DNA of 64,000 nt from an uncultured bacterium (lineage in GTDB: Bacteria > Patescibacteriota > Saccharimonadia > UBA4664 > SCTI01). The notes beneath the pieces were generated by a model. That model did no database searches. It had not been told where the DNA came from and saw only the letters and a list, made by a program, of their open reading frames with translations. The stretch is from the NCBI GenBank assembly GCA_963721685.1, contig CAVRJJ010000005.1, positions 311,367 through 375,366 on the forward strand, in the 5' to 3' direction. Position 1 is the first letter of the stretch; the number at the start of each line of letters is the position of its first letter. Made by a program: the position numbers and the translations under genes. Of the stretch, positions 7,996 to 62,470 are shown piece by piece.

Positions 7996-8031
7996 TAAAA
8001 AGCCGCTGCCGTTACCGGTCAGCGGCTTTTT
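7996..8031. terminator. Rho-independent terminator hairpin between the major pilin and minor pilin genes
   Basis: AAAAAGCCGCTG-(11 nt loop)-CAGCGGCTTTTT is a 7-bp GC stem flanked by an A-run and a T-run. It is symmetric and could act on either strand. Confidence 0.6.
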
Positions 8032-8050
8032 AGCTAGGTTAGACTATTAG

Positions 8051-17980: not shown

Positions 17981-18058
17981 GGCGAGATTAGCTCAGTTGG
18001 TTAGAGCGCCGGTTTGTGGTACCGGAGGTCGTGGGTTCAAGCCCCATATCTCGCCCCA
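17981..18058 (+). tRNA. tRNA-His (anticodon GUG) with genomically encoded G-1
   Basis: G-1 precedes the acceptor GCGAGAT/ATCTCGC. The anticodon stem is CCGGT/ACCGG with loop TTGTGGT. The T arm is GTGGG-TTCAAGC-CCCAT. Discriminator C73 and CCA are encoded. Confidence 0.75.
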
Positions 18059-18139
18059 AAGTACTTATGCTTACTTATGATCTTATCAAAGAATAAAACA
18101 AAATATGGTACGCTTTAATCAATTACGAAGGGATTATCG

Positions 18140-19339
18140 ATGTCTGATGGCGGTGATGGACGCGAAGATGAAGGTACTGGCGGAGAAGGGGCTAAACACT
18201 TTGAGGGTGCCGATGATTTAGGGCGCCAGCTCGGAGGAGATGTAGGCGATGAAGATGAAGGAGTCGGACACTCAGAACATGTTGGTGATGGTGCAGTCGA
18301 AGACGCAAGCAATGAAGGTCAAGCAGAGGTCAATGAAATAACAAAGTCAAGTGAGAGTGATCGCCTAGATGCAGAGTTTTTGAAAGTCGTATTAGAGCTT
18401 GAACTCAAACACATAAGCGAAGTAAAAGATCTCGCTCGTGATGTGGCAGAAAATAGAGTAGGGGGATCATTTCATACTTGGCAAGATATTTATCAAAGCA
18501 CAAACTGGTTTGCACTTTTAGATAAACGTTCCGGTGAGACTTCGGATATTATCCGTGCGAGGACAGAAAGTAGATACCCTTCAGGTAGGTCTTATGCGAG
18601 TGAAAGGGGTTATGAACCGGATGACCAGTTCCATCCGTTTAACGAAAAAAGATCATATATATCGCCAGATGAAATTAAAGAGCTTGAAGTGGAACATTCC
18701 GAAGTAAGTGTGGATTCTCCCGAGTTTGTTGAGCTGGCTTTTCAAGCAAAGGCCAATAAGACTAGGAAGGAATTTGAGGAACGTATCGAAAGAGCAGAGG
18801 CTCGGGCCGTTCGGCGTGAAGAATGGGCTAAGGCTATACATGACAATCCCGGCGCAGTAGAGTTAATTGGAAGCCCTGGTTATGAGGGCAGTATTGAGTA
18901 TACTAATCCTGCAGAGCTCTGTGTGCGCATGGAAGCCGAGGCCCAAGTAGTTAGAAGGCGTGCGACTATTTTGCGGGATCGTGCACAAGCGATGTCTGTT
19001 CCCGGGGTAAAGTACGATCAAGCTGTTTTTGAAAATGCACTGTATAGTGCCATGAATGCTGAGCATGACCCTGAGGGCGAAGATAACTATGGTGGGTATA
19101 ATGGGCGGCATGCAGAGTATCGGTGGGTAAGGCAGGTTGAAGCAGATTACACCCAGGGAAGACGTCCTGCTCGAGAAACCACTAAGGCACGTATTGATAC
19201 GCTCCTATCCGACGAGGAAGCAAAGATTGGCGATGTAAAAGCATGCTACACCGGACACATCGTATATGAAGCCGAACAGTATGAAAAAGCAGCCGAAGAC
19301 ATTGAGCGCAGGCTTGCTGAGATCAAAACGCCTAGTTAG
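18140..19339 (+). CDS. hypothetical acidic protein (first gene of tRNA-His-adjacent island)
   Basis: A 399-aa ORF with a highly acidic Gly/Asp/Glu-rich N-terminus and no domain that I recognise. It has its own AT-rich upstream region. Confidence 0.5.
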   Translation: MSDGGDGREDEGTGGEGAKHFEGADDLGRQLGGDVGDEDEGVGHSEHVGDGAVEDASNEGQAEVNEITKSSESDRLDAEFLKVVLELELKHISEVKDLARDVAENRVGGSFHTWQDIYQSTNWFALLDKRSGETSDIIRARTESRYPSGRSYASERGYEPDDQFHPFNEKRSYISPDEIKELEVEHSEVSVDSPEFVELAFQAKANKTRKEFEERIERAEARAVRREEWAKAIHDNPGAVELIGSPGYEGSIEYTNPAELCVRMEAEAQVVRRRATILRDRAQAMSVPGVKYDQAVFENALYSAMNAEHDPEGEDNYGGYNGRHAEYRWVRQVEADYTQGRRPARETTKARIDTLLSDEEAKIGDVKACYTGHIVYEAEQYEKAAEDIERRLAEIKTPS

Positions 19340-19389
19340 ATTCAGGCCAAATCATCCGAAGACGATGCTCAAAAATCTACGAAGCCATC

Positions 19390-19476
19390 ACCGACCTAAA
19401 CCGAACGTCATTCACCATTTCACATATAATTTTATAATGTTCAGTTCGCAACTTGGCCGCCAACTCGCCCCAATTG
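19390..19476 (+). repeat. island direct repeat, copy 1
   Basis: It aligns with copies 2 and 3 on the core ..AAACCG.A..TCATT.ACCATTTC.CA.AT...TTT.TA.TG.TC.GTTCG.AAC.TG..CGCC(AACTCGCCCCAAT). Confidence 0.6.
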
Positions 19477-19587
19477 CTTTCGAACTTATTTTACCTTGGC
19501 AAAGGCATTATTCGCTCTTCAAACCCGTAACGCTGAATGGGTTTCGAACCCTTAGTCGAGCCATGATTTTGCAATAATTGCGGGTTG

Positions 19588-19618
19588 CCCCGGCGCGACT
19601 GGGGAAGTCGCGCCGGGG
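19588..19618 (-). terminator. GC-rich perfect hairpin downstream of the minus-strand GC-rich gene
   Basis: CCCCGGCGCGACT-GGGGA-AGTCGCGCCGGGG is a 13-bp perfect stem 18 nt beyond the stop of 19637..20116. It has no U-tract. Confidence 0.4.
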
Positions 19619-19636
19619 CGAAGCGCGTAGTGCGCC

Positions 19637-20116
19637 CTAGTGCCGGTAGAGCAGGACGGGAGTGTTGCCCGGCAGGGCATCGAGGTATGCCCTGACTGCC
19701 CGGTTGCGGCTATGGATCGGCCAGTCGCCTTCGACGTGGTCGATCCCTGGAACCTCGATCTTGGCGAGATCCCTGGCGTATGCCCAGGTCATCTCGCCGC
19801 CGGTTGCGTCCGTTCTCGTCATCTCGTAGCCACCCTCGCGGAAGACGTAGATCTCGACGTCGGCCGGAAGCGGGTGCGTGTTGATGCGCGGTTCGTCCGG
19901 AATGTCGTGGCGGTGGCTTGCCATCTCCTTGACCCAAGCCAGGTCGAAGATCTGACCGAGGGTCTCGTAGTTCTGGCCCATCTCGAGGACGCTGTGCGGA
20001 TAGACCTCTCTGCTCGTGAGAGCATCAGTGCCCGCAATCAGCAGTCTGAGGTATTCTCCCATGTCTGTGCTCCTTTCAAGAGCGGTTTGTGTGCAAGGGA
20101 TGCTATATAATAACAT
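19637..20116 (-). CDS. hypothetical protein, strongly GC-rich (cassette 1 of island)
   Basis: A 159-aa ORF. Third codon positions on this strand are overwhelmingly G/C by manual tally, much more so than in the overlapping plus-strand ORF, so the minus strand is taken as coding. Confidence 0.5.
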   Translation of the reverse strand: MLLYSIPCTQTALERSTDMGEYLRLLIAGTDALTSREVYPHSVLEMGQNYETLGQIFDLAWVKEMASHRHDIPDEPRINTHPLPADVEIYVFREGGYEMTRTDATGGEMTWAYARDLAKIEVPGIDHVEGDWPIHSRNRAVRAYLDALPGNTPVLLYRH

Positions 20117-20222
20117 AAAATGCTTGAGTTATAAATGCTTTTATGGTGCAGTATAAATAATTCGTGCGGGCATCGCATTAACCACCATATATAGTATTCA
20201 CAATCCGGTAGGACTCGCCATT

Positions 20223-20311
20223 ACCGACCGAAACCGTATATCATTTACCATTTCACAAATCGCTTTGTAGTGCTCGGTTCGCAACCTGAACGCCAACTCG
20301 CCCCAATATTG
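20223..20311 (+). repeat. island direct repeat, copy 2
   Basis: The same core as copies 1 and 3, about 830 bp downstream of copy 1 in the same orientation. Confidence 0.6.
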
Positions 20312-20471
20312 TTGCAATTATATGAAAAGTATGGTATTATAACGCCCATCTCACTTGAGAGTTCTTTCAATTATGTAATGGAGAGCCATTTGCGCATTGC
20401 TGTGCGTAGCTGGCTCTCCGTTTCTGCCGCGGCGAGCTCTACTACTACTTAGGCAGAACAAGGAGTTCACC

Positions 20472-20975
20472 GTGTACACTCACCTGTACGTTAGCTACAC
20501 CGACGCTGAGCGTCTGTTCAAGAAGTTCGGACGGAAGCCGCTTGGACCGGGCGAATCCGGATGCGTCACTCGCTCGACGCTCGATGAGCATTTCAGCGAG
20601 TTCGGCATGACCTACATCGACCGGCTGGACGCATCTCTCGAGCCCGACCGGACCGACGACACGTTCGTCCTCAAGTTCAGCAAGTACCTCCCGCATGTTC
20701 CGCGGGAGCTCGTCGAGATGGGCATCAAGGTTCTCAGGGTCGAGATGGTGCGCTACAACAGCGCACCGACCAGTGCTCGTGCCGGGTACTACGAGAGCCT
20801 GACCGGCTTCACCGCAACGGTGGAGAACGTCGTTTCGACACAGAACGGCAAAAGGGTTGGCGCGTATGCCCAGAACATCACGCTCACAGGCCCTTCCCTC
20901 ATGGCGGCGCAGCAGTTCAACTCGCAGCTGAGCGAGGGGGGCAGCAACCACTTGCTGGTGAACGCCTTCGAGTAA
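20472..20975 (+). CDS. hypothetical protein, strongly GC-rich (cassette 2 of island)
   Basis: The start is reassigned to GTG at 20472, which sits 6 nt after an AAGGAG RBS. The protein is about 167 aa, with third positions mostly G/C. The overlapping minus-strand ORF has Arg/Ala-rich antisense-type composition. Confidence 0.5.
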   Translation: MYTHLYVSYTDAERLFKKFGRKPLGPGESGCVTRSTLDEHFSEFGMTYIDRLDASLEPDRTDDTFVLKFSKYLPHVPRELVEMGIKVLRVEMVRYNSAPTSARAGYYESLTGFTATVENVVSTQNGKRVGAYAQNITLTGPSLMAAQQFNSQLSEGGSNHLLVNAFE

Positions 20976-21035
20976 GCAGAGACGGGAGCACAAGGCGGGC
21001 CTACGGGCCCGCCGCTTCCATTTATGCACTTATCG

Positions 21036-21104
21036 TTTTAAACCGAATATCATTAACCATTTCGCAAATAGCTTTATAGTGCTCGGTTCGTAACATGGAC
21101 GCCC
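21036..21104 (+). repeat. island direct repeat, copy 3
   Basis: The same core. Its 3' end provides the ATG of the truncated uridine-kinase-like ORF. Confidence 0.6.
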
Positions 21105-21481
21105 TTCGAAGCGGTAAAAGCGTAACGATTGATGTTTGGAGCCATCGGTCGAACTCCGATTATTTTAACCATGGCAAAATGAAACCGCGCACCCTTTTTC
21201 CAAGACCTATCATTCTTATTGAAGGCTACTTGGCACTTTGGAATCCAAAACTGAACGAGCAGTATGACCGCAAGTACTATATTGATTTGAATGAGGCGAC
21301 GCGCACGGCTCGAAGAAAAAATAAGATTATATATAGCGACGACATTGTAATCCCGATGCACAATAAATATATTGAACCAACCAAAAAACACGCTGATATT
21401 GTTTTTTACGTGGTCAAGATGAGCGCCGGAGAACTTCAGCGTAAAATAAGAGAAGATATTCGCTCGGCGTCGCTAGTGTGA
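21095..21481 (+). pseudogene. uridine kinase/phosphoribulokinase-family fragment lacking the N-terminal P-loop half
   Basis: The encoded ..ALRSGKSVTIDVWSHRS..IILIEGYLAL..IDLNEATRTARR..HNKYIEPTKKHADIV.. matches the C-terminal two-thirds of uridine kinase. No GxxGxGKS P-loop is present upstream, where repeat copy 3 lies. Local sequence is AT-rich. Confidence 0.5.
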
Positions 21482-23323: not shown

Positions 23324-24940
23324 ATGAAGCAATTGTGGTATAAAAACGCCGTTATTTACGCGGTGGATGTTAGTACATTCCAAGACAGCAACGATGATGG
23401 GATAGGTGATTTTCCAGGGCTCACCAAACGCTTAGATCATTTGGCGTATATGGGTGTTGACTGCATCTGGGTGTTGCCCTTCTTTCCCAGCCCCCGACGG
23501 GATAATGGCTACGACGTCACCAACTATGTTGATATTGATCCCCGCTTTGGAACCTTTGATGACTTCAGGAAGTTTATTAAGCGTGCCGACGAGTTGGAGA
23601 TACGAGTGCTTATTGATTTGGTGGTACACCATACGTCAGACCGTCATCCGTGGTTTGAGGCGGCGCGGTCTGACCGGACTTCCAAATACCGCGACTACTA
23701 TATCTGGAGTGATGACCTCCCTTCTATAAAAACCGAAAAAAGCTTTTTCCCAGAAGTGGAGTCAGGCGTGTGGCGCTACGACCCGATTTCCGAATCCTAC
23801 TACCGGCATGGGTTTTACCATTTTCAACCGGATCTGAACTTTGCGAACCCCCATGTTCGCCAAGAGGTATTTAACATTGTGGATTTCTGGCTTTCCTATG
23901 GTATCAGCGGTTTTCGCATTGACGCCGCTAACTGGATCATGGGCCTTAAGGGTCTGCCTGGAACAGAGGTAAAGGACCCTGGTGCCTTTTGGAAAAAAAT
24001 CCACGATTTTATTCGGAAGCGGCGGGAGGACGCGGCCCTTTTGGTGGAAGCGGACATGGAGAAGGAGGAGATACCCAGCTTTGTCTTAGGCGGCAAAGGA
24101 GTGCAAATGCTAAAAAACTTTTGGGGAAATCAAACAATGCTTTACGCGCTGGCATCTGAAAAAGCTCAACCGTTGCTCGATACGCTTAACGAGCTTCCGG
24201 TTATGCCCACAGAATCCCAATATGTAAATTTTTTACGTAATCTCGATGAAGCGAACATCGAGCGTCTCACCACCGAGGAACAAGATGTGGTTTACCGCAA
24301 ATTCGGAGCCAAGAAAACCATGCAGGTGTATGGCCGGGGGATCCGGCGGCGGCTTGCCCCTATGTTAAAGGGCAATATAAAACAGTTAAAAATGGCGCAC
24401 AGTTTATTGTTTTCGATGCCTGGAGCGCCACTAATACCATACGGTGACGAGATAGGGATGGGGGATAATTTAAAACTTCAGGAGCGTGACGCGGTGCGGG
24501 TTCCGATGCAATGGGCAAACGAGCCTTATGGCGGTTTCTCCACTACCGATGTGTGCGATATTGTAGACCGACGCGTACGGGAAAAGCAATTCCATTACCG
24601 GCGGGTGAATGTGGCTGCGCAGAAAAACGATTCCGACTCTTTGCTTAATTGCATAAAAAAACTGATTGAATTGCGGAAGAAATATCCGATAGTTGGCGCC
24701 AGTAACTTTGAGGCCTTAGTAACCGACCGCCCCGATGTAGTAGCCTTAAAAGTGGAAAATGGGAACGCCAGGTTTATAAGTTTTCATAACCTATCAAGCA
24801 AAGCTTGTATTGCTAAGCTCAAGATTCCCGCGCACCTTAAAGGGCTAAAAGAAGTTATGTCGGATAGTGAATACGAAGCTCCCAGCGATGGATTGCGTCT
24901 TGAAGCGTATGGATGGAGGTGGTTCACCGATGGCCGATGA
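23324..24940 (+). CDS. GH13 family alpha-glucan enzyme, trehalose synthase / maltose alpha-D-glucosyltransferase-like
   Basis: WYKNAVIY.., FFPSPRRDNGYDV, DLVVHHTSDRHPWF and GFRIDAA are GH13 conserved regions with TreS-like character. The length is 538 aa. Confidence 0.7.
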   Translation: MKQLWYKNAVIYAVDVSTFQDSNDDGIGDFPGLTKRLDHLAYMGVDCIWVLPFFPSPRRDNGYDVTNYVDIDPRFGTFDDFRKFIKRADELEIRVLIDLVVHHTSDRHPWFEAARSDRTSKYRDYYIWSDDLPSIKTEKSFFPEVESGVWRYDPISESYYRHGFYHFQPDLNFANPHVRQEVFNIVDFWLSYGISGFRIDAANWIMGLKGLPGTEVKDPGAFWKKIHDFIRKRREDAALLVEADMEKEEIPSFVLGGKGVQMLKNFWGNQTMLYALASEKAQPLLDTLNELPVMPTESQYVNFLRNLDEANIERLTTEEQDVVYRKFGAKKTMQVYGRGIRRRLAPMLKGNIKQLKMAHSLLFSMPGAPLIPYGDEIGMGDNLKLQERDAVRVPMQWANEPYGGFSTTDVCDIVDRRVREKQFHYRRVNVAAQKNDSDSLLNCIKKLIELRKKYPIVGASNFEALVTDRPDVVALKVENGNARFISFHNLSSKACIAKLKIPAHLKGLKEVMSDSEYEAPSDGLRLEAYGWRWFTDGR

Positions 24941-26561
24941 GGCAACCTTTCCTTACTTAAAAGGGAAAGTGGTCTACCAGATTTATCCCCGCAGCTTTTA
25001 TGACGCTAATGGCGACGGCGTTGGTGATATCCCGGGTATTATTCAAAAGCTTGATTATTTGAATGATGGAACCCGCAATTCGCTTGGCATCAATATGATT
25101 TGGCTGTCTCCGTTTTACCCATCGCCCATGAATGACTTTGGCTATGACGTGGCAGATTATTGCGGGGTTGATCCATTGTTTGGCACATTGGACGATTTTC
25201 AGCAGCTTGTGGCTGAGGCGCATCGGCGTGATATTACGATTATGATCGACTTCGTGCCCAACCATACCTCCCATGAACATCCGTGGTTTCAAAACTCCCG
25301 CGCATCACGCGCCAGCGCTAAACGCGACTGGTATATTTGGCGCGATCCCAAGCCTGACGGTTCGCCGCCCAATAACTGGCTAAGTGTGTTTGGGGGATCG
25401 GCCTGGGAATATGATGCTGAAACAAAACAGTACTATATGCATAGCTTTTTGGCGCAGCAGCCGGATTTAAACTGGGAAAACCCGGACCTTCGCGCTGCTA
25501 TGATGCAGGCCATGCGGTTTTGGTTGGACTTAGGGGTTGATGGTATTCGGGTTGACGCGGTTGACTGGATGGCGAAAGACCAGCAGTTTCGCGACAATCC
25601 GCCGAACCTTCATTACTCGCCCGGGGTTGATGATCCCTACCACGCCTATGAGCGCAAATATAGTCAAAATGCCCCCCAACTCTATAGCTATTTGCGCGAA
25701 ATGGCAGAAGTTGTTAAAGACTATCCCAAAGGCTTTATGGTAACGGAGACCTACCCGGACCGCCGCAATATTGTTTCAGAATACTTAAAATTGTATGACC
25801 GCTATTTAGCGGAAGTGTCGGCTCCGTTTAACTTTGAAGGCATATTACTTCCCTGGACCGCGATATCGTTTAAGACGTTTATTGACCGCTTCCAAGCCGG
25901 ATTAAAGCCGAATCATATTCCCATATATGTGCTAGGCAACCATGATAACTCGCGGCTGGTAACGCGTATCGGCCAAGATGCTGCCCGCGCCGCCGCGCTC
26001 ATGCTTCTGACACTCCCGGGAATTGCATTTATTTATTACGGCGATGAATTGGGGATGACCGATGTGCACATTACTCCGGAAAAAGTTCGAGACCCCTTTG
26101 AAAAGCGGGTGCCCGGCATGGGTCTTGGGCGCGATCCTGAGCGTACGCCAATGCAATGGTCTGCTTTGCCTAACGCCGGTTTTTCCAAAGTTAAGCCTTG
26201 GCTTCCGGTGGGCTCCAACTTTAAAGAAGTTAACGCGGTGCAGGAGGGGAATGACCAACGTTCAATCTTATCGATGTACCGCAAGCTTATTCAGCTTCGG
26301 CGTCTTTCCCCCATTCTCCAGTACGGCAACTACGAATCGCTTGAAATTAATAACGCGTTCGTCTTTGGCTTTGCCCGTTCTTACAAGGGGCACGCATTGG
26401 CGGTTGTCCTTAACTTTTCTGACCAAGAAGTTGAATTTAATACCGCGCTTAAAGAAGGGGTTTTAATGTATACCACCCATGGCGATGCTGAAGCCCGTCC
26501 TATCCACCTTTCCAAACACGGGTTGCGTCCAAATGAAGGCCAAATTGTAACCTTGCTTTAA
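24930..26561 (+). CDS. GH13 alpha-glucosidase / oligo-1,6-glucosidase-like
   Basis: The start is reassigned to MADEATFPYLKGKVVYQIYPRSF.. in an ATGGCCGATGA overlap with the upstream stop. GH13 regions DFVPNHTS, GIRVDAV and YVLGNHD are present. Confidence 0.8.
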   Translation: MADEATFPYLKGKVVYQIYPRSFYDANGDGVGDIPGIIQKLDYLNDGTRNSLGINMIWLSPFYPSPMNDFGYDVADYCGVDPLFGTLDDFQQLVAEAHRRDITIMIDFVPNHTSHEHPWFQNSRASRASAKRDWYIWRDPKPDGSPPNNWLSVFGGSAWEYDAETKQYYMHSFLAQQPDLNWENPDLRAAMMQAMRFWLDLGVDGIRVDAVDWMAKDQQFRDNPPNLHYSPGVDDPYHAYERKYSQNAPQLYSYLREMAEVVKDYPKGFMVTETYPDRRNIVSEYLKLYDRYLAEVSAPFNFEGILLPWTAISFKTFIDRFQAGLKPNHIPIYVLGNHDNSRLVTRIGQDAARAAALMLLTLPGIAFIYYGDELGMTDVHITPEKVRDPFEKRVPGMGLGRDPERTPMQWSALPNAGFSKVKPWLPVGSNFKEVNAVQEGNDQRSILSMYRKLIQLRRLSPILQYGNYESLEINNAFVFGFARSYKGHALAVVLNFSDQEVEFNTALKEGVLMYTTHGDAEARPIHLSKHGLRPNEGQIVTLL

Positions 26562-34799: not shown

Positions 34800-35831
34800 T
34801 TGAATAAGCTTTTGAAGCGCAGAATTTCTGTTGTAGCGGCTATCGCTATTCTCCTAGGTGTAATGGCGCCAATTACGTGGCCTGTCGCCAACGCCGCCTC
34901 ACTGTCTGATACTTATTTACGAATGAACCGCATGAAGGCCAGCCAGGCAACTGATTTTCGATTGGTGTTCAAGCCCTCTACCGTTGTCGCCGCCAATGGT
35001 AAAGTTAAGGTCACATTTCCTGCCGGTTTTACCGTAAACGCCACCCAGACTGCTAGCTCCGCCACCTGCGCGGCCGAGTCGGGAGCCACCGCCATGCCAG
35101 GTGTCTCGGCACCAAGCGGGAGTGGCCAGACTATTTCAATTACAAGTACTACCGGCCTAACGGGGGGTACGCTTTATTGTGTTGACCTCACTAGTGTGAC
35201 ATCCGTCACCAATCACGCTACGCCGGGGGGGTATGTGCCAACGGTTTTCACTACTACTTCTGGTGATGTGGCAATCGATACCAAAACCGTGGGCTTACGG
35301 GTAATCGCGGATGACCAGATTGTAATTACCGCGGTGGTCCCGCCAACTTTCGACTTTGCTTTAAGCGGTAATACCGACGCCTTTACCGCCTCGCTTGATC
35401 CAACAGCCGTTAGGACTACCACCGGCCGAACCGTAACCATCTCAACGAACGCCGCTAAGGGCTGGATTGCTTGGGTTAAAGACAGCAACCAAGGCCTCAC
35501 TTCAGTAAGCGCGTCAAACACCATAGCTACTACTGGCACCGTGGACGGCACTCCATCGACATTAGCGGCAGGAACGGAAGGGTATGTACTGGACGTAGAT
35601 TTAACGACTGATAGCGGCAATGGGACGCCGTCAATTGCCGCGGAATATAATGGAGTAGCCGCTAACTCCGGAGGTGCACTTAGCGGAACCTTTCAACCAT
35701 TTGCCTCTTCAACAGGAACAGCATTGGGAGATGTATTTACCCTTATTGAATACGCGGCAATTAATGGTGAGACGGAAGCTGGTGATGACTACACCGATAC
35801 TCTAACCATTGTGGGTGCCGGATACTTTTAG
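34800..35831 (+). CDS. WxL-domain-like cell-surface protein (paralog 1)
   Basis: The start codon is TTG, followed by a signal peptide. ..VVPPTFDFALSGNTD.., ..NAAKGWIAWVKDSN.. and the C-terminal ..DDYTDTLTIVGAGYF follow the three conserved blocks of the WxL domain (VPxFDFG / GWxLxV / TLTWxL). It is paralogous to 36067..37239. Confidence 0.55.
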   Translation: MNKLLKRRISVVAAIAILLGVMAPITWPVANAASLSDTYLRMNRMKASQATDFRLVFKPSTVVAANGKVKVTFPAGFTVNATQTASSATCAAESGATAMPGVSAPSGSGQTISITSTTGLTGGTLYCVDLTSVTSVTNHATPGGYVPTVFTTTSGDVAIDTKTVGLRVIADDQIVITAVVPPTFDFALSGNTDAFTASLDPTAVRTTTGRTVTISTNAAKGWIAWVKDSNQGLTSVSASNTIATTGTVDGTPSTLAAGTEGYVLDVDLTTDSGNGTPSIAAEYNGVAANSGGALSGTFQPFASSTGTALGDVFTLIEYAAINGETEAGDDYTDTLTIVGAGYF

Positions 35832-35860
35832 CGCTTAAATCTCTTCGGACCACCTAACTC

Positions 35861-35889
35861 AAGAACTATGCTGTAGGAGCATAGTTCTT
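35861..35889 (+). terminator. hairpin downstream of WxL-like paralog 1
   Basis: AAGAACTATGCT-GTAGG-AGCATAGTTCTT is a 12-bp perfect stem. Confidence 0.4.
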
Positions 35890-35906
35890 ATGCTATAATA
35901 AAGCTA

Positions 35907-35927
35907 CATCCAAGAGGTGGATGTTTT
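35907..35927 (+). terminator. Rho-independent terminator
   Basis: CATCCA-AGAGG-TGGATG followed by TTTT. Confidence 0.5.
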
Positions 35928-35974
35928 GACTGATAGCCCAGCAGGGAAATTGGTGATTTTGTGTTGGAAAAGTC

Positions 35975-36004
35975 TTGACATCACGCTTATGCTTCGTTTA
36001 TAGT
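35975..36004 (+). promoter_or_regulatory. sigma70-type promoter of WxL-like paralog 2
   Basis: A TTGACA -35 box, an 18-nt spacer and a TATAGT -10 box, about 60 nt upstream of the 36067 ATG. Confidence 0.5.
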
Positions 36005-36066
36005 GAACCGTAACAGCTTACAAAACAAAACCAAAAGCTGAAACATAAACAAAAAGAAAACACACT

Positions 36067-37239
36067 ATGCGAAGAAAATTCACGTTAAATCGATTCTCTC
36101 TAGTAGTATTAAGCATTACTGCGCTGCTCGTACAGCTTGTACCAGCCCATTTGATACCTAATGTGTACGCGCTGACAACAACCGACACCTACTTGCGCCT
36201 CGACCGCATGAAGTCTAGCACCGGTACCGCCCAGCCAACCACCTTCCGGCTTGTCTTTAAAACCCCAGCCACTGATACTGGGTCAGACGCAAAACTGCAG
36301 GTGCAGTTCTATCACCCAAACAACGTGGATCCAACCCAGGCCAATAATAACTTTACAATCAATAACACCCAGGCAGTCGCAACCACGAACTGCGCGACAG
36401 AAGCCAGCAACGAGCTTTCGGCCAGCGTGCTGGGAGTTCCCGGCACTCTAAGTGCGACTGGCGACAACACCAACGCCGGCGCTACCCGCAAAACCATTAC
36501 AATTACCGGTGTTACCAACATGACAACCTCGCAGTACTACTGTGTTGACTTTACTACCGCTAACGCTGTGACAAACCCGGTAAACCCTAACCTTTACATG
36601 GTGCAAATTAGAACCCTGACAGCTGCTGACGCTGTTCTTGACACGAAACTTGTCGGTGTCCGCATCGTGGACGCGACCGATGCCAACTACAAGTATGACC
36701 AGATTACCGTTACCGGAGTTGTTCCGCCATCATTCAGCTTCAACTTAAGCGGTAATACCGACGCCTTCATAGCCCTCCTGGACCCTGCCGCGGTTACCTA
36801 TACTAGTGGACGGACGGTTACCATCTCAACCAACGCCGCCAAAGGTTGGATAGTCTGGGTCAAAGACTCAGACCAAGGTCTCAAATCAGTATCTACGCCA
36901 AGCTCAGTAATTGCTTCAACATCAACGGGAGGTGGCGCGCTTAGTGACGATCTCGTCGACACAGCCGCACCAGGAACCGAAAACTTCCTTCTCGACGCGG
37001 ATATTACTACTGATGCAGCTGGCGGCGGGGCGGTTTCCATTGACCCTGATTACGACGGAGTAGCCGCGGGCGAAGGTGGCGCCCTGAGCAACACGGTCTT
37101 CCAGCAAATTGCCAAAGCTACCGGAACCGCCGACGGAGATGTAATTACCCTGAAAAGTTTAGCCACCATTACCGGATCAACTCCTGCCGGTGACGACTAT
37201 ACCGACATCCTCACCGTTATCGGCGCCGGCAACTTCTAA
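36067..37239 (+). CDS. WxL-domain-like cell-surface protein (paralog 2)
   Basis: A signal peptide, then ..VVPPSFSFNLSGNTD.., ..NAAKGWIVWVKDSD.. and the C-terminal ..DDYTDILTVIGAGNF. It is collinear with paralog 1. Confidence 0.55.
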   Translation: MRRKFTLNRFSLVVLSITALLVQLVPAHLIPNVYALTTTDTYLRLDRMKSSTGTAQPTTFRLVFKTPATDTGSDAKLQVQFYHPNNVDPTQANNNFTINNTQAVATTNCATEASNELSASVLGVPGTLSATGDNTNAGATRKTITITGVTNMTTSQYYCVDFTTANAVTNPVNPNLYMVQIRTLTAADAVLDTKLVGVRIVDATDANYKYDQITVTGVVPPSFSFNLSGNTDAFIALLDPAAVTYTSGRTVTISTNAAKGWIVWVKDSDQGLKSVSTPSSVIASTSTGGGALSDDLVDTAAPGTENFLLDADITTDAAGGGAVSIDPDYDGVAAGEGGALSNTVFQQIAKATGTADGDVITLKSLATITGSTPAGDDYTDILTVIGAGNF

Positions 37240-43517: not shown

Positions 43518-45458
43518 GTGGTTAACCTCATGAAGCGCGTCAGTTATGGCTTGATGAATGGGATAATTATTAATTTAATTATCCTTTCTTCAGTTTCTCA
43601 GGCGGCGATTAATCAATCAGCCTACAGATTCTTAAACAATATGGACAATACGAACCCAACTTTTCTTAACTCCAATGCATCTTCGGCAGATGAAACTGTA
43701 GGGGCTAAGGATATAGACACCATAAATGCCAATATATTTATAGGAGGTCATAACAGTAAATGGTTAATAGAAAAGCGCTCTGAGTTAGATGGTGGTTTAG
43801 TGTCAGCATTTGGTACCAATGGTTTAATAGAACAAGATATTACAGGAAATTCTGAAGAAATTGCAGGAATTAAAGCGCACAATAGTGACGCTTCTATATT
43901 TGTTGCTGGATCAGATAGGAGTGTTGGGGCTGCTGATGCTCAATGGAGAATAGAAAAAAGAAATTATGTTACCGGTGCGCTGATTAATGGTTTTGGGACA
44001 AATGGTGTTGTTACCAGCAATCCTTCGTCTGGTAACGATATAGTTACGGATATTATCCTAGATAAAAATGGTGGGTATATTTATATTTCCGGATATGATG
44101 TTATTCCTGGTAATAATGAGTGGAGAATAGAGAAAAGAACGGTTGCTACCGGTGCGTTAGTATCGAGCTTTGGGACAAATGGTGTATTTACGCTCAACCC
44201 ATCTAATCAAGATGATAGAGTACGAACACTAAATTTAGATCCTACTGCAACATATATTTATGTGGTTGGATCTGACGAAGGAAACGGCAACACCCAGTGG
44301 AGGTTGGATAAACGTCGTGCTTCGGATGCTGCTGCCTGCACGGCTGCTAACTGCGGAACATTATTTGGGACCGCAGGGACCTATACTAGTAATCCCAGCA
44401 ACAGAGCAGATGATATTTTATCACTTCAGGTAGATGATGCAGGCGGAGCGATTTATTTGGGTGGTTTCGATGGTGCAGTTGCAAATAATAACTCACAATG
44501 GAGAATTGAAAAAATAAATTTATTAACGGGAGCACTGATTACTGGATTTGGTACAAATGGTGTGGTGCTGTCAAACCCAAGCAGCAATAATGATGCAATT
44601 ACTGGAATGGCGCTGGATGGTGCCGGGGGCTATTTATACATTACAGGCTATGATAACACTTCAAGTGATATGCGATGGAGAGTGGAAAAAAGACAAAGAG
44701 GATCAGGTGCATTAGTGACAGCTTTTGGTACGAATGGTGTGGTAACTAGTAATCCTAGTAGCAATAACGACCAGCCATATTCCATAAATGTAGATATAGA
44801 TAGAAACCTCTTGTTTGGTATCGGAATGGATAAAGTGTTAGGCTCATCAAATCAACAATGGAGAATTGAGCAATATCAAACCGATACGGGAAGTTTTTGG
44901 CTAGCTAATGCTAATACTGCTGCGATTGCGAGTACCAACATAACTTTTAGGCTTAGAATGTTGCTTCATACAGACGTTAATCTACTTTCATCGAGTAATA
45001 CACAGTTCAAGCTTCAAACCGCTCCAAAAGTAGGTACTTGTGACACTAGTTTTATAGGTGAGTCGTATGTGGATGTTGTATCAAATTCGGGAGAGGTTTT
45101 GTACAATGATAATCCTTCATTGGCTGACGGTGCATCTGCGGTTGCAGTAAACGGTGATCCGACCCATAGTGGCGACACTAACGTTTTGCAAACAATTGAG
45201 GAGCTTAATAATTTTACAAATCCTAACACAATTTCAGCAAACCAAGATGGCTTATGGGATTTTGTTCTAAAAGATAATTCGGCTTTTGGGGCTTATTGCT
45301 TTCGGGCTGTATATAGTGATGGGTCTCCATTGGAAAGCTATACGACGATTCCAGAAATAACTTTCTGCAAAGATGATCCGAAAACAGATAACTTACTTCG
45401 TGGGGGAACATATTTTTGTGAAGGTATTAAGCGATCTTATTTTTGGGCCAAAGATTAA
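43518..45458 (+). CDS. delta-60-repeat (beta-propeller-like) secreted protein
   Basis: At least seven ~60-aa tandem repeats of the form ..QWRIEKR..TGALI.GFGTNGVVTSNPS..D.......D..GGYIYI.G.D.., matching the delta-60 repeat pattern. There is an N-terminal signal peptide, and the gene is AT-rich. Confidence 0.55.
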   Translation: MVNLMKRVSYGLMNGIIINLIILSSVSQAAINQSAYRFLNNMDNTNPTFLNSNASSADETVGAKDIDTINANIFIGGHNSKWLIEKRSELDGGLVSAFGTNGLIEQDITGNSEEIAGIKAHNSDASIFVAGSDRSVGAADAQWRIEKRNYVTGALINGFGTNGVVTSNPSSGNDIVTDIILDKNGGYIYISGYDVIPGNNEWRIEKRTVATGALVSSFGTNGVFTLNPSNQDDRVRTLNLDPTATYIYVVGSDEGNGNTQWRLDKRRASDAAACTAANCGTLFGTAGTYTSNPSNRADDILSLQVDDAGGAIYLGGFDGAVANNNSQWRIEKINLLTGALITGFGTNGVVLSNPSSNNDAITGMALDGAGGYLYITGYDNTSSDMRWRVEKRQRGSGALVTAFGTNGVVTSNPSSNNDQPYSINVDIDRNLLFGIGMDKVLGSSNQQWRIEQYQTDTGSFWLANANTAAIASTNITFRLRMLLHTDVNLLSSSNTQFKLQTAPKVGTCDTSFIGESYVDVVSNSGEVLYNDNPSLADGASAVAVNGDPTHSGDTNVLQTIEELNNFTNPNTISANQDGLWDFVLKDNSAFGAYCFRAVYSDGSPLESYTTIPEITFCKDDPKTDNLLRGGTYFCEGIKRSYFWAKD

Positions 45459-46193
45459 TTAATTACCATTAGGAAAATTAATAATTAACTTATCTAGAGA
45501 TTTTGTTAGTGCCCTTATGTTAATGGTGTTATGCCAGTAATAATCACGAGCGCTCAATAAATGAGATTGATCTTTGCCCAACCTTGCAGCAATCTCTCCG
45601 CTCACATTATTCGTATAGTATATTTTTAGGTCCTCTACAACTCTTAGCTGTTCAGATAACGCCGGATCATTTACGTGATTATTTTTCAAATTTTCAAGAT
45701 CGGCTTTGGTATAGTCAAGTATCTCAACTAAAGCTTTTACATTATTTGGATTTTCAATAATGTTTTGGTGGTTAAAAGTTAATAATTGGCGCGTAGCTCT
45801 GGAATTTTTAAACGCGTAGTCTGCCACTTCAATGTAATCATTACAAAAATTTGAAATTTTATGATAATAATCATTAATTCGTTGAGATTTTTGCTCTTGC
45901 GCTTGATCCACAATTTTTTCTCGTATGTTATTACACGCAACTATGCTTTTGTTTAAATGAGCATGATAGATATCGAGACTAGATTGCGTTAGCCCATTTT
46001 TCTCGCGTTGACCCATGGCTTCATCAATAGATCCAACAGAAATTTTTACATCACCTAGCTGTTGCCTTAAATAATTTGCAGTAGATTCCTTTTCATAAGT
46101 GATAAAAGTGAATAATGAAATAACTATTAAAATAAGAATTATAATCAAAAAAAACAGTTTTTTGAATATAGGATTTAGCGTTAGCGCATTCAT
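45459..46193 (-). CDS. membrane-anchored hypothetical protein (AT-rich)
   Basis: A 244-aa protein with an N-terminal TM helix (LFFLIIILILIVISLFTFI) and an Asn/Lys/Ile-rich composition. It is convergent with the delta-60 gene. Confidence 0.4.
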   Translation of the reverse strand: MNALTLNPIFKKLFFLIIILILIVISLFTFITYEKESTANYLRQQLGDVKISVGSIDEAMGQREKNGLTQSSLDIYHAHLNKSIVACNNIREKIVDQAQEQKSQRINDYYHKISNFCNDYIEVADYAFKNSRATRQLLTFNHQNIIENPNNVKALVEILDYTKADLENLKNNHVNDPALSEQLRVVEDLKIYYTNNVSGEIAARLGKDQSHLLSARDYYWHNTINIRALTKSLDKLIINFPNGN

Positions 46194-60838: not shown

Positions 60839-62470
60839 ATGACTAATACTGCGCGGGTGAAAACGCCCAAGCCAATCTCAAAATCTGTGCCGTGGTGGCA
60901 GACCGCGGTTATTTACCAACTCTATGTCCGGTCGTTTTTTGACACTAATGCCGATGGGGTGGGGGATTTGCCTGGGGTTATCGCTAAACTTGGTTATTTA
61001 GGTGAGCTGGGGGTTGACGCGATCTGGCTTTCACCGATTACCGAAAGTGCCAATGTGGATTGGGGCTATGACGTATCAGACTATTACACAATTGATCCCA
61101 CTTTAGGCAGCATGGATGATTTTGAGCAGCTTATGAGTGAAGCTGATAAGGCTGGGATCAAAATTATTATGGATCTTGTTCCGAACCACACGAGCAATAA
61201 GCATCCTTGGTTTCAGAGCGCGTTAACCGGGCGTCACGCCAAGTACCGTGACTACTATATCTGGGCCGACCCAAAACCCGATGGCCGTCCACCTAATAAT
61301 TGGCGAGCCTCGAATGACGGTGGAAGCACCTGGGAATACCATTCGGCCACAGGACAGTACTACCTCCATAATTTTTTTAAAGCCCAGCCCGACCTCAACT
61401 GGCGTAATCCCGCCGTATTGAAAGAATTTGATAAGATAATGCGGTTTTGGTTAGACAAAGGGGTGGCTGGTTTCCGCCTTGATGTTTTTAATATGATTAT
61501 TAAGGATTCAAGTTTTCGCGATAACCCCAAAAGCCTAAAAACCGATGAGCCCGAAATTCGCCTGTACCGCCAACGGCCAATTTACAATACTTCCCAGCCC
61601 GAAGTCCACAGCATTTTAAAAAGGTGGCGGCTGACTACCGACGACTACCCTGGGGACCGCTTACTGTTGGGCGAAACCAACCGGGTTTACGACATGAAGG
61701 TGGTTGCCAGCTTTTACGGCAACCAAAACGAACTTCAACTTATATTTAATTTGGCATTCGTGGATGCCCCTTTTAAGGCGCCTCAATTGCGCGATCTTGT
61801 AACTAAGACCGAAACCGAGTTTGCCGGTAAGCATTGGCCAGCTTGGACTGGCTCAAACCACGATAAGCCCCGTTTGGCGTCCCGGTGGGCAGCTGGCGAT
61901 GAACGCAAGATCCGGGCAGCTCTTTTGATGCTCTTAGGGTTGCGGGGGACACCGGTCCTTTATTATGGTGATGAACTGGGCATGGAAGATGTTTATATCG
62001 CCCCTTGGCGCTTGAAGGATCCCCAGGGGCGAAAATATTGGCCGGTAAACGGGGGGCGTGACCGTGCGAGGACACCAATGCCGTGGAAAAACCAGTTTGG
62101 CGCCGGATTTACCGAAGAGGGGGTCAGGCCATGGTTACCATATGGCGATTTGCGTGTCCGCAGCGTGGCTTCCCAAAACAACCATGCCGACTCAACCCTG
62201 CAATTTTCCAAAGACTTAATTAGTTTTCGGCGAAACGATGCCGATTTGCTCCTCGGGGAATATGAGGGTATTCCCACCACCGAATCGGTCTGGGCATGGA
62301 AGCGGGGGAAGAATACGGTTGTGGCTATTAATTATTCTAACTACCACCATGAGATAAAAAACATGAGCGGTAAGATTATTATTGGCACTCAGCGGGAGCG
62401 TGAAGGAGAGGACCTGAAAGCATTATTACATCTGGATCCCTGGGAAGGAGTAATTCTTAAAATTAAATAG
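60839..62470 (+). CDS. GH13 alpha-glucosidase/oligo-1,6-glucosidase-like (third GH13 paralog)
   Basis: ..VIYQLYVRSF.., DLVPNHTS, GFRLDVF and YTGSNHD are GH13 conserved regions I-IV. Confidence 0.8.
   Translation: MTNTARVKTPKPISKSVPWWQTAVIYQLYVRSFFDTNADGVGDLPGVIAKLGYLGELGVDAIWLSPITESANVDWGYDVSDYYTIDPTLGSMDDFEQLMSEADKAGIKIIMDLVPNHTSNKHPWFQSALTGRHAKYRDYYIWADPKPDGRPPNNWRASNDGGSTWEYHSATGQYYLHNFFKAQPDLNWRNPAVLKEFDKIMRFWLDKGVAGFRLDVFNMIIKDSSFRDNPKSLKTDEPEIRLYRQRPIYNTSQPEVHSILKRWRLTTDDYPGDRLLLGETNRVYDMKVVASFYGNQNELQLIFNLAFVDAPFKAPQLRDLVTKTETEFAGKHWPAWTGSNHDKPRLASRWAAGDERKIRAALLMLLGLRGTPVLYYGDELGMEDVYIAPWRLKDPQGRKYWPVNGGRDRARTPMPWKNQFGAGFTEEGVRPWLPYGDLRVRSVASQNNHADSTLQFSKDLISFRRNDADLLLGEYEGIPTTESVWAWKRGKNTVVAINYSNYHHEIKNMSGKIIIGTQREREGEDLKALLHLDPWEGVILKIK

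What the first reader, a model, noticed from the sequence alone, without database searches (positions are those of the whole stretch)
19588..20975. Two very GC-rich cassette genes with a U-tract-less GC hairpin terminator, possibly acquired from a high-GC host
Genes 19637..20116(-) and 20472..20975(+) have third codon positions that are mostly G/C in my manual tally, roughly four-fifths or more. Each overlaps an Arg/Ala/Val-rich antisense ORF, as is typical of high-GC DNA. The first gene is followed by a 13-bp perfect GC stem (CCCCGGCGCGACT/AGTCGCGCCGGGG) without a T-tract, the terminator style of Actinobacteria. If this genome belongs to Saccharibacteria, which live as epibionts on Actinobacteria, these could be host-derived genes captured into the island. 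The proteins have no domain I recognise; immunity or effector-like functions are possible.
Basis: partly seen in the sequence, partly recalled or inferred. Interest (0 to 1): 0.65.

Follow-up and report, generated by a model that had tools for sequence, protein, structure and literature searches.

The report
GC-rich cargo genes at tRNA-His hotspot
Two small genes with strikingly GC-rich codons are real, foreign-looking cargo in a repeat-bounded insertion hot spot next to a tRNA-His gene, but their only relatives sit at similar tRNA hot spots in other mid-GC Saccharibacteria-type genomes, so capture from a high-GC actinobacterial host is not supported.

Summary
Gene B (20472-20975, 167 aa) has GC3 0.82. 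Forty-five core genes average 0.52 ± 0.03 (z about 6). The excess is confined to third codon positions and the two terminator stems; promoters, leader and flanking repeats are 39-48% GC. The 14-bp GC hairpin without a U-tract is real and is the strongest hairpin in the window. The antisense ORFs are by-products of codon choice.

The actinobacterial-host origin is not supported. Neither protein has a close relative anywhere (best 45% and 60% identity). All located relatives lie in mid-GC contigs; the two B-relative loci that carry organism names are Saccharimonadales/Saccharibacteria, and six of the thirteen located loci lie just downstream of a tRNA gene. A and B sit in modules bounded by 91-nt repeats, and two of the three repeats end in the 3' terminus of the adjacent tRNA-His. 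This looks like a tRNA-anchored integration hot spot with no integrase in the window.

All ten B-family genes are GC3-rich (0.63-0.90), above their neighbours in nine of the ten genomes, despite saturated synonymous divergence. All ten also carry a covarying 5' leader RNA with no Rfam match. Protein functions remain unknown.

The parts
17982..18058 (+). tRNA-His (GTG), anchor of the island. Its 3' terminus ...CTCGCCCCA is copied at the ends of repeats 1 and 2.
18140..19339 (+). Module 1 cargo: 399-aa ORF with an acidic, Gly-rich N-terminus and low GC3 (0.36). No family match.
19384..19474 (+). Repeat 1 (91 nt), ending in CTCGCCCCAA, which equals the 3' end of tRNA-His.
19520..19567 (+). 48-nt relic resembling the start of the truncated udk-like ORF that follows repeat 3 (about 67% identity; score 14 against a shuffle mean of 8.1 +/- 1.3).
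19587..19619 (-). Perfect 14-bp GC stem with a 5-nt loop and no U-tract, 16 nt downstream of gene A. Presumed terminator or 3'-end stabiliser.
   Evidence: sub-threshold Rfam Scr3202
19637..20062 (-). Gene A, 141 aa, GC 0.62, GC3 0.80. Confident alpha/beta model with no known fold or family.
20107..20135 (-). Promoter-like site for gene A (TTTATA-17-TATTAT with a TG extension). Consensus match only.
20217..20307 (+). Repeat 2 (81% identical to repeat 1), ending in CTCGCCCCAA.
20312..20340 (+). Promoter-like site for gene B (TTGCAA-17-TATTAT, TG-extended). The position is conserved in other B loci (TTGACA-like).
20375..20471 (+). Conserved structured 5' leader of gene B: a 20-bp hairpin (GGAGAGCC.../...GGCTCTCC), the motif CGTTTCTGCC (near-invariant across the ten loci), a second 6-bp helix, then the SD sequence.
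20472..20975 (+). Gene B, 167 aa, GTG start, GC 0.60, GC3 0.82. Member of a roughly 170-aa family; the two members in named genomes are Saccharimonadia.
20976..21027 (+). Gene B terminator region. Core stem GGCGGGCC/GGCCCGCC at 20994-21013 with tail GCUUCCAUUU. A hairpin follows the gene at the same position in L001 and L007.
21026..21116 (+). Repeat 3 (65% identical to repeat 1). It diverges after ...ACGCC and runs into the udk-like ORF.
21095..21481 (+). 5'-truncated uridine-kinase-like ORF (matches profile positions 77-186 of 210). No P-loop motif anywhere in 17-24 kb.

Best explanation
A and B are accessory cargo genes of two small single-gene modules with no integrase gene of their own (833 and 809 bp repeat-to-repeat), stacked at an integration hot spot anchored on tRNA-His.

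Each module is a self-contained transcription unit: a sigma-70-like promoter, an SD sequence, an ORF and a GC-rich terminal hairpin. B also has a structured leader that probably gates translation initiation.

The modules are separated by a 91-nt repeat, and in two of the three copies its distal end copies the 3' terminus of tRNA-His. This is the footprint expected when successive elements recombine site-specifically with a tRNA 3' end, each arrival pushing earlier ones outward. The recombinase would act in trans or has been lost (inferred).

The genes arrived by horizontal transfer from the gene pool shared among Saccharimonadia-type genomes or their mobile elements. They were not lifted from an actinobacterial host.

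Their GC-rich codon usage came in with the gene lineage. For B it is a family-wide trait, kept over saturating synonymous divergence in nine of ten genomes. What maintains it is not established. The biochemical roles of both proteins are unknown; by analogy with the cargo of sister arrays (kinases, a beta-lactamase-like protein, Nudix, cupin, VOC, HAD) they are most likely niche or defence accessories (weak inference).
For: Composition
- GC3 is 0.80 (A) and 0.82 (B) against 0.52 +/- 0.03 in core genes. Only third positions and the hairpins are GC-rich; the flanks are 39-48% GC.
- The neighbouring modules have different compositions (GC3 0.36 and 0.47), so the island is a mosaic.

Module boundaries
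- Three 91-nt direct repeats bound the modules.
- CTCGCCCCA occurs only three times in the window: at the tRNA-His 3' end and at the ends of repeats 1 and 2 (0.68 expected by chance).
- The same architecture appears elsewhere. In L007 the repeats carry GTACCATTTCTA, the tRNA-Arg 3' end plus flank. In L009 the A homolog is flanked by CACCCCAGCCAA, the tRNA-Gln 3' end. L015 has six 38-nt repeats between single genes.
- A or B relatives start 175-260 nt after a tRNA gene in L005, L008, L009 and L014. In L007 and in the window, one other module lies between the tRNA and the relative.

Relatives
- A's best hit in an exhaustive HMMER search of 1.84 billion representatives is 45% identical.
- B has ten family members at 36-71% identity. 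All lie in contigs whose neighbouring genes have GC3 of about 0.40-0.67; two are titled Saccharimonadales/Saccharibacteria.
- B-family GC3 is 0.63-0.90 against neighbours at 0.40-0.67. Identical amino acids share codons at about the chance rate, so synonymous sites are saturated.
- B's promoter and leader are conserved and covary in all ten loci.

Background
- tRNA-anchored islands built by successive integrations, with partial tRNAs scattered through them, are described for Prochlorococcus tycheposons (10.1101/2020.12.28.424599).
Against: - No integrase or other recombinase was found among the 58 window ORFs scanned, so the recombination step is inferred.
- The tRNA-like part of the repeats is degenerate (10 exact nt; roughly 60% identity, by eye, over about 45 nt). 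Repeat 3 lacks the tRNA terminus.
- Repeat 1 is followed by a udk-like relic. The repeat could therefore derive partly from the udk upstream region rather than from an attP.
- The phylum of the window itself was not established directly.
- Only two homolog loci carry organism names; the others are judged Saccharimonadia-like from GC, contig size and gene content.
- The B searches were not exhaustive (word-index and motif-pattern methods), so distant homologs in high-GC bacteria may have been missed.
- A GC3 of 0.8-0.9 still needs a source or a force, and none was identified.
Confidence: 0.6

Rival explanations
1. Direct, fairly recent capture of host DNA: the two genes were taken up from a high-GC actinobacterial host (for example by natural competence) and inserted into the island.
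For: - The codon usage is what a genome of roughly 60-65% GC would give: TTC, AAC and CAG 100%, CTC/CTG 90% of Leu, CCG 75% of Pro.
- The GC hairpin lacks a U-tract and gives a sub-threshold hit to a Streptomyces sRNA model.
- The window carries type IV pilus genes (PilB, PilM, PilO, pilins). These are consistent with DNA uptake (my own knowledge of Saccharibacteria competence; not tested here).
Against: - No close homolog exists anywhere. A's best is 45% in an exhaustive search; B's best is 60%.
- All thirteen located relatives sit in contigs whose neighbouring genes have GC3 of about 0.40-0.67; none sits in a high-GC context.
- The motif scan of 185,579 species-representative genomes found B relatives only in two Saccharimonadia MAGs.
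- No plasmid, phage or IMG/VR hits.
- GC-richness ends at the CDS. B's promoter and leader (44.5% GC) are conserved across all family members.
- AGR makes up 33% of Arg codons and GCA 35% of Ala codons in A+B. From general knowledge, that is atypical of high-GC Actinobacteria.
Confidence: 0.07
2. An unsampled GC-rich reservoir (an organism or mobile element of about 62-68% GC, possibly actinobacterial or a high-GC Patescibacteria lineage) repeatedly donates these cassettes. Each mid-GC genome acquired its copy independently and recently enough that the composition has not yet drifted to the recipient genome's.
For: - B-family GC3 ranges from 0.63 to 0.90, as if the copies were at different stages of drifting toward the recipient's composition.
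- In the 57% GC Saccharimonadales MAG (L005), B matches its background (0.67), so higher-GC relatives could be the home lineage.
- A-family members deviate from their genomes in both directions (0.23 to 0.80), as expected for a frequently transferred gene.
Against: - No member of either family has been seen in a high-GC context among billions of proteins.
- The family would need to have diversified to 36-71% identity inside a reservoir that is absent from databases.
- The conserved AT-richer promoter and leader travel with the gene in every genome.
Confidence: 0.2
3. The GC3 excess is maintained in situ by a force acting on these genes. Candidates are selection on codon usage or mRNA stability, or GC-biased gene conversion at a recombination hot spot. 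On this reading it is not a donor signature.
For: - GC3 is high in nine of ten B genes relative to neighbours although synonymous sites are saturated.
- Two-fold codons are more biased (0.87) than four-fold codons (0.74).
- The genes sit at recombination hot spots.
Against: - Other cargo in the same arrays is not GC-rich (L015 and L007 neighbours 0.33-0.59), so hot-spot location alone does not raise GC.
- Pilin genes, assumed here to be highly expressed, have GC3 of 0.45.
- The A family is not consistently GC-rich.
- No overlapping gene explains it.
Confidence: 0.12
4. Assembly artefact: GC-rich reads from another organism were chimerically joined at the repeats.
For: The GC-rich segments are short and bounded by repeats.
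Against: - The A protein is held by three sources (NCBI, Logan, ENA), and the look-up found it on a separate 1,208-nt Logan contig.
- B-family genes show the same embedding in mid-GC contigs in nine other assemblies, some within 446-607-kb contigs.
- The compositional switch occurs at CDS boundaries, not at the repeats.
Confidence: 0.01

Closest known systems
tRNA-anchored genomic islands built by successive site-specific integrations (for example Prochlorococcus islands and tycheposons; 10.1101/2020.12.28.424599)
   Same: - Island starts at a tRNA gene.
- Modules are separated by direct repeats that copy the tRNA 3' segment.
- Newer arrivals are presumed to push older ones outward.
- Cargo is compositionally heterogeneous and strain-specific.
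- Partial tRNAs remain as remnants.
   Different: - No tyrosine recombinase or any other mobility gene lies in or near the island.
- Modules are single genes of about 0.8 kb, each with its own promoter and terminator.
- The tRNA-like repeat is embedded in a longer 91-nt conserved unit.
- The host is a reduced Saccharimonadia-type genome.
Integron gene-cassette arrays, including arrays that lack an integrase
   Same: Tandem single-gene cassettes are separated by a recurring recombination-site-like repeat. Cargo in sister arrays is resistance- or detoxification-like. Cassette families are shared between genomes.
   Different: - No IntI, attI or Pc.
- The repeats do not fold as attC hairpins (z between 0.2 and -1.3).
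- No R''/R' core pair.
- Cassettes carry their own promoters, and A is inverted relative to B.
- The repeats mimic tRNA 3' ends.
Compositionally atypical horizontally acquired genes whose composition later drifts toward the recipient's (the Lawrence-Ochman 'amelioration' model; named from my own knowledge)
   Same: GC3 is far from the genome mean while GC1 and GC2 are near normal. The genes are located in an island, and their distribution is patchy.
   Different: For the B family the atypical GC3 recurs in nine of ten genomes across saturated synonymous divergence. A single recent transfer that then drifts toward the recipient genome's GC does not predict this.
U-tract-less ('I-shaped') GC hairpin terminators reported in Actinobacteria (from my own knowledge)
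   Same: A long, perfect, GC-rich stem lies directly after the stop codon with no U-run.
   Different: Function as a terminator is untested here. The closest A relative's operon (L008) also ends in a U-less inverted repeat, but L009's A gene ends in a canonical A/T-flanked hairpin. The feature is therefore neither family-wide nor diagnostic of origin.

Membership tests
Host-derived (Actinobacteria to epibiont) horizontally transferred gene | Composition deviates from the recipient genome toward that of the donor | tested here: met
   GC3 0.80 and 0.82 against 0.524 +/- 0.034; z about 6
Host-derived (Actinobacteria to epibiont) horizontally transferred gene | Closest homologs are in the proposed donor clade | tested here: not met
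   The best hits (45% for A, 60% for B) and all thirteen located relatives lie in contigs whose neighbouring genes have GC3 of about 0.40-0.67. Two are named Saccharimonadales/Saccharibacteria.
Host-derived (Actinobacteria to epibiont) horizontally transferred gene | Nucleotide-level identity with donor DNA, including non-coding flanks | tested here: not met
   No blastn or tblastn hit in the plasmid or phage collections. The flanks are 39-48% GC, and B's flanks are shared with Saccharimonadia relatives. Actinobacterial chromosomes could be searched only through the motif scan and the protein databases.
tRNA-anchored island from successive site-specific integrations | Located immediately downstream of a tRNA gene | tested here: met
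   tRNA-His at 17982-18058; the island starts at 18059. Relatives lie downstream of tRNA-Glu, Leu, Gln, Arg and Trp.
tRNA-anchored island from successive site-specific integrations | Direct repeats of the tRNA 3' segment at module boundaries | tested here: met
   CTCGCCCCAA at 19464 and 20297 equals the tRNA-His 3' end. There are analogous 12-mers in L007 and L009. Repeat 3 lacks it, and similarity beyond 10 nt is degenerate.
tRNA-anchored island from successive site-specific integrations | Integrase or recombinase gene in or next to the island | tested here: not met
   No recombinase domain was found in the 58 window ORFs scanned, covering 78-62977. Five ORFs of at least 150 aa were not scanned.
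tRNA-anchored island from successive site-specific integrations | Excision or integration activity, or presence/absence polymorphism between strains | not testable with these tools
   Only indirect evidence: the 90%-identity protein clusters of A and B each contain one sequence.
Integron cassette array | attC sites: imperfect inverted repeats with R''/L''-L'/R' cores that fold as hairpins | tested here: not met
   The repeats fold no better than shuffles on either strand (z from 0.19 to -1.32). The L015 repeats have no palindromic partner.
Integron cassette array | IntI integrase with attI and Pc; promoterless, co-oriented cassettes | tested here: not met
   No integrase. A and B have their own promoter-like sites and opposite orientations.
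Canonical intrinsic terminator | GC-rich stem followed by a U-tract | tested here: not met
   Gene A's hairpin has a 14-bp stem but the tail CAACCCGCAAUUAUUG and is not called by the consensus scan. Gene B's hairpin is called, with the weak tail GCUUCCAUUU.
Known protein families (Pfam, NCBIfam, PADLOC, PHROGs, PDB sequences and folds) | Significant profile or fold match for A or B | tested here: not met
Known RNA family (Rfam 15) for the gene B leader | Covariance-model match | tested here: not met
   No match at E <= 1 in 19300-21200 apart from the sub-threshold hit on A's hairpin.

The most novel reading that the evidence does not exclude
The B family is a mobile, self-contained cassette (promoter, a previously undescribed structured leader RNA, ORF, terminator) that keeps GC3 near 0.8 inside genomes whose genes sit near 0.5, across divergence deep enough to saturate synonymous sites.

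That would mean one of two things. Either an active force is at work (selection on synonymous sites, or GC-biased conversion tied to repeated recombination at tRNA hot spots), or a hidden GC-rich compartment exists in which the cassette spends most of its evolutionary time, possibly shuttling between epibiont and high-GC host.

Together with the arrays of single-gene modules with no integrase gene nearby, separated by pseudo-tRNA 3' ends, this would define an integron-like gene-capture system specific to Saccharimonadia.
Probability: 0.25. Interest if true: 0.75.

Novelty: new variant of a known kind. Interest (0 to 1): 0.45.

Why it matters
Epibiotic Saccharibacteria live on high-GC Actinobacteria, so GC-rich genes in their genomes are tempting evidence for host-to-parasite gene flow. 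This case shows that the compositional signal alone misleads. The relatives of both genes circulate among Saccharimonadia-type genomes at tRNA-anchored hot spots.

If the family-wide GC3 excess of the B cassette is actively maintained, it would be an unusual example of gene-specific base composition that resists drift toward the resident genome's composition in reduced genomes.

The conserved leader RNA offers a testable new cis-regulator in a phylum with almost no characterised gene regulation. The single-gene module arrays bounded by pseudo-tRNA ends suggest how these tiny genomes sample accessory genes.

Tried and rejected
- **Integron reading.** The repeats do not fold like attC sites and no IntI was found. 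Rejected.
- **Antisense or overlapping genes as the cause of high GC3.** Synonymous shuffles always reproduce the open antisense frame, and it is broken in L005, L015 and L016. Rejected.
- **Repetitive surface proteins in the A search.** P0011 and P0014 are spurious multi-stretch hits.
- **Plasmid, phage and IMG/VR searches.** DNA and protein searches were empty. The A-family alignment was too divergent for a motif scan.
- **Profile search with the A alignment in the word-indexed database.** It returned only four proteins.
- **Leader motif in IMG/VR.** One pattern match (L021) was not confirmed by the covariance model.
- **Toxin-immunity pairing for A.** Neighbours are housekeeping genes (ValRS-type synthetase, PpiC-type rotamase) or unknowns. 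No support.
- **Functional link between B and P-loop kinases.** Kinases lie next to B in five loci (window remnant, L007, L014, L015, L016). In four of them an att-like repeat or a tRNA separates the kinase from B; in L016 no repeat or tRNA was detected. They belong to different kinase families. Left open.
- **Conserved promoter or UTR for A.** The regions upstream of A are not conserved between the window, L008 and L009.
- **Direct look-up of the source contig.** It failed, so the window's taxonomy is only inferred.
Full report
**Observation**

The window is 49% GC. I took 45 ORFs of at least 150 aa as core genes. Their GC1, GC2 and GC3 are 0.553, 0.425 and 0.524 ± 0.034, with a maximum GC3 of 0.599.

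- An alignment with 28 distant relatives, plus an AAAGGAG ribosome-binding site, puts A's real start at 20062. That gives 141 aa, GC 0.62 and GC3 0.80.
- Gene B (20472-20975, GTG start, 167 aa) has GC 0.60 and GC3 0.82. Its start is confirmed by the conserved N-terminus MYTH.
- None of 895 150-codon stretches of core genes exceeds GC3 0.64, so A and B lie about 6 SD out.
- GC1 and GC2 of both genes are ordinary. The excess sits only at synonymous positions and in the two terminator stems. A's upstream region is 39% GC, B's promoter plus leader 44.5%, and the flanking repeats 42-48%.

The hairpin is a perfect 14-bp stem, GCCCCGGCGCGACT/AGTCGCGCCGGGGC, with a 5-nt loop at 19587-19619. It starts 16 nt past A's stop codon. 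The 81-nt context folds at -43 kcal/mol (z = -6.0), and it is the strongest true hairpin in the window. No U-run follows it. Core terminators such as 7996-8032 do have A/T tracts.

The antisense ORFs exist but are by-products. Every synonymous-codon shuffle of A or B leaves the same antisense frame open, and that frame is interrupted in three of the ten B genes compared (L005, L015, L016).

**Local anatomy**

The two genes lie in a repeat-bounded stack directly after a tRNA cluster: Pro, Gly, Arg, and His at 17982-18058.

Three copies of a 91-nt direct repeat sit at 19384-19474, 20217-20307 and 21026-21116. They delimit:
- a first module with a 399-aa ORF of low GC3 (0.36);
- the A module (833 bp repeat-to-repeat, gene on the minus strand);
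- the B module (809 bp).

After repeat 3 comes a uridine-kinase-like ORF that matches only profile positions 77-186 of 210. No P-loop motif occurs anywhere between 17 and 24 kb, so this ORF is a 5'-truncated remnant.

Repeats 1 and 2 end in CTCGCCCCAA, which equals the last nine bases of tRNA-His plus one. The 9-mer occurs only at these three places in 64 kb. The preceding 35 nt or so align loosely with the tRNA from the anticodon loop onward.

The repeats do not fold better than shuffles on either strand. No recombinase domain was found in the 58 window ORFs scanned.

Each gene has its own promoter-like site with a TG-extended -10 element, an SD sequence and a GC hairpin.

**Relatives of B**

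The word-indexed search of 5.8 billion proteins found five relatives at 51-58% identity. The metagenome scan added three more and the genome scan one.

The two loci that carry organism names are a Candidatus Saccharimonadales MAG and a Candidatus Saccharibacteria MAG. The others are contigs of up to 607 kb whose neighbouring genes have GC3 of about 0.40-0.67.

| Locus | B-family GC3 |
|---|---|
| L012 | 0.90 |
| L015 | 0.85 |
| window | 0.82 |
| L014 | 0.82 |
| L013 | 0.81 |
| L017 | 0.81 |
| L016 | 0.79 |
| L001 | 0.71 |
| L005 | 0.67 |
| L007 | 0.63 |

Only in the 57% GC Saccharimonadales MAG (L005) does B match its background.

Pairwise protein identity across the family is 36-71%. At identical amino acids the two genes use the same codon about as often as their codon usage predicts by chance; for the window against L013, for example, 0.58 observed and 0.54 expected. 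Synonymous sites are therefore saturated, yet the GC3 bias persists across the family.

No B relative was found in plasmids, phages or IMG/VR.

**Relatives of A**

The word-indexed search found only the query itself. The exhaustive HMMER scan of 1.84 billion representatives found 69 proteins. The best is 45% identical, and most are 120-145 aa with unremarkable amino-acid composition; only two look as if they come from high-GC organisms. The long repetitive hits are spurious.

- The closest relative (L008) lies 213 nt after a tRNA-Leu in a 52% GC contig, next to genes for MreB, a PEGA-domain protein and sortase. It is also GC-rich, with GC3 0.75 against about 0.55 for its neighbours, as is its 110-aa downstream partner.
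- Other members range down to GC3 0.23 in a genome whose genes sit near 0.47.

The A family therefore mismatches its resident genomes in both directions, as a frequently transferred gene would.

**tRNA hot spots elsewhere**

- A or B relatives start 175-260 nt downstream of tRNA-Glu (L005), tRNA-Leu (L008), tRNA-Gln (L009) and tRNA-Trp (L014). In L007, and in the window, one other module lies between the tRNA and the relative (tRNA-Arg in L007).
- In L009 the A module is flanked by the 12-mer CACCCCAGCCAA, which is the 3' end of tRNA-Gln. Five terminator-bearing copies of that junction punctuate the array.
- In L007, repeats carrying GTACCATTTCTA (the tRNA-Arg 3' end plus flank) separate single genes: a P-loop kinase, the B homolog, a beta-lactamase-like protein, Nudix, cupin and an unannotated 333-aa ORF. 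I assigned these L007 functions from the ORF translations, not from a profile search.
- In L015, six copies of a 38-nt repeat (GAGGTTCTAACGTCGTCCCAGACC...) follow the stop codons of consecutive small genes. These include an AAA_33 kinase, B, a DUF2000 protein and a HAD hydrolase.

Modules with no integrase gene in the flanks examined, separated by pseudo-tRNA 3' ends, are therefore a recurring architecture in these genomes. The closest described analogue is the tRNA-anchored island built by successive integrations, with partial tRNAs left behind, as in Prochlorococcus tycheposons. Those elements carry their own recombinases.

**The B leader**

All ten B loci share a promoter region that is TTGACA-like in most of them, followed by a leader of about 100 nt. 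The leader has:
- a 20-bp hairpin (GGAGAGCY.../...RGCTCTCC);
- the motif CGTTTCTGCC (near-invariant across the ten loci);
- a 6-bp helix (TCTGCC/GGCAGA);
- a pyrimidine-rich loop;
- the SD sequence.

These are shown. On the ten sequences, 93% of cells are paired and 11 pairs show double changes. None of 500 shuffles reaches these values, and register-shifted controls give 32-45% pairing.

A covariance model hits only the position upstream of B genes. Rfam has no match.

This leader is more conserved than the protein. It shows that the whole transcription unit has evolved as one piece within this group of genomes, with a regular-GC leader attached to a GC3-rich ORF.

**Function**

Neither protein matches Pfam, NCBIfam, PADLOC, PHROGs or PDB sequences.

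- The B model (pLDDT 84) gives only partial matches to mixed alpha/beta domains, with Z no higher than 6.3.

I commit only to 'accessory cargo'. Judging by the company these genes keep in sister arrays, a role in small-molecule or nucleotide-related defence is most likely, at low confidence.

**Verdict on origin**

The genes are foreign to this genome, but the proposal that they were captured from an actinobacterial host fails its own test. No close homolog exists anywhere, and every located relative is in a Saccharimonadia-type mid-GC context. The GC signal also stops at the CDS boundary.

Pooled codon usage (two-fold sites 0.87, four-fold sites 0.74, AGG 18% of Arg) fits a moderately GC-rich bias but does not point to a clade. 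An unsampled GC-rich reservoir, or in-situ maintenance of GC3 by selection or biased conversion, remains possible. I could not discriminate between them.

**Limits**

- The window's phylum is inferred, not shown.
- The B searches rely on shared words or motifs.
- The recombination mechanism is inferred from the repeats alone.
- The AFDB fold libraries were unavailable.

Noticed in passing
window 20341-20471; also L001 7897-8003, L005 7896-8003, L007 5892-6003, L012 356-461, L013 20-128, L014 1605-1716, L015 4895-5003, L016 4904-5003, L017 4891-5003: A conserved, covarying 5' leader RNA lies upstream of every B-family gene. It has a 20-bp hairpin plus a 6-bp helix; 11 pairs show compensatory changes and 0 of 500 shuffles reach that. 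It has no Rfam match and is found only upstream of B genes. It is a candidate new cis-regulatory element.
   Followed up: yes
L007 5745-9213; L009 5750-10782; L015 3196-7060: Arrays of single-gene modules are separated by repeats that mimic the 3' end of the adjacent tRNA (T-loop-like GTTCTAAC... through ...CCA). No integrase gene lies in the flanks held. The cargo is resistance- or detoxification-like: AAA_33 kinases, DUF2000 and HAD by profile search, plus a beta-lactamase-like protein, Nudix and cupin read from ORF translations.
   Followed up: partly
window 18140-19339: A 399-aa ORF lies directly after tRNA-His. It has an acidic, Gly-rich N-terminus and low GC3 (0.36), the opposite compositional anomaly to A and B. 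No family match.
   Followed up: partly
window 21095-21481 and 19520-19567: A 5'-truncated uridine-kinase-like ORF (no P-loop) abuts repeat 3. A 48-nt relic of the same sequence follows repeat 1, which hints that the repeat unit and part of udk were duplicated or moved together.
   Followed up: partly
window 43530-46193: A low-GC patch (36-41% GC) holds a 642-aa ORF (GC3 0.29) containing four roughly 97-nt internal repeats, and a 244-aa ORF (GC3 0.27). This is probably another foreign insertion.
   Followed up: no
L007 5208-5723, L014 701-1336, L015 4268-4798, L016 5622-6296, window 21095-21481: A P-loop kinase (AAA_33/zeta-toxin-like, or uridine-kinase-like) lies next to the B gene in five of ten loci. 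In four of them an att-like repeat or a tRNA separates it from B; none was detected in L016. A functional link is unclear.
   Followed up: partly
L008 6425-6757 and 6762-6808: The closest A relative has a GC-rich (64%) 110-aa downstream partner that the window lacks. That operon also ends in an inverted repeat without a U-tract (CACCAGAG...CTCTGGTG).
   Followed up: no
L009 1-1889: A TrwB/VirD4-type coupling protein gene lies a few kb upstream of a tRNA-Gln cassette array in a 42% GC contig. This hints at conjugative machinery near such arrays.
   Followed up: no
window 23324-26561 and 60839-62470; 34863-37239: Paralogous gene sets: three ORFs (two with confirmed alpha-amylase domains; the third, 60839-62470, was not scanned) share short DNA repeats, and two adjacent ORFs of unknown function share a 197-nt repeat at 73% identity.
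   Followed up: no
window 19411-19438, 20215-20244, 21053-21080: Each 91-nt repeat contains a sigma-70-like promoter match (for example TTCACC-16-TATAAT) pointing into the downstream module. These are consensus matches only.
   Followed up: no
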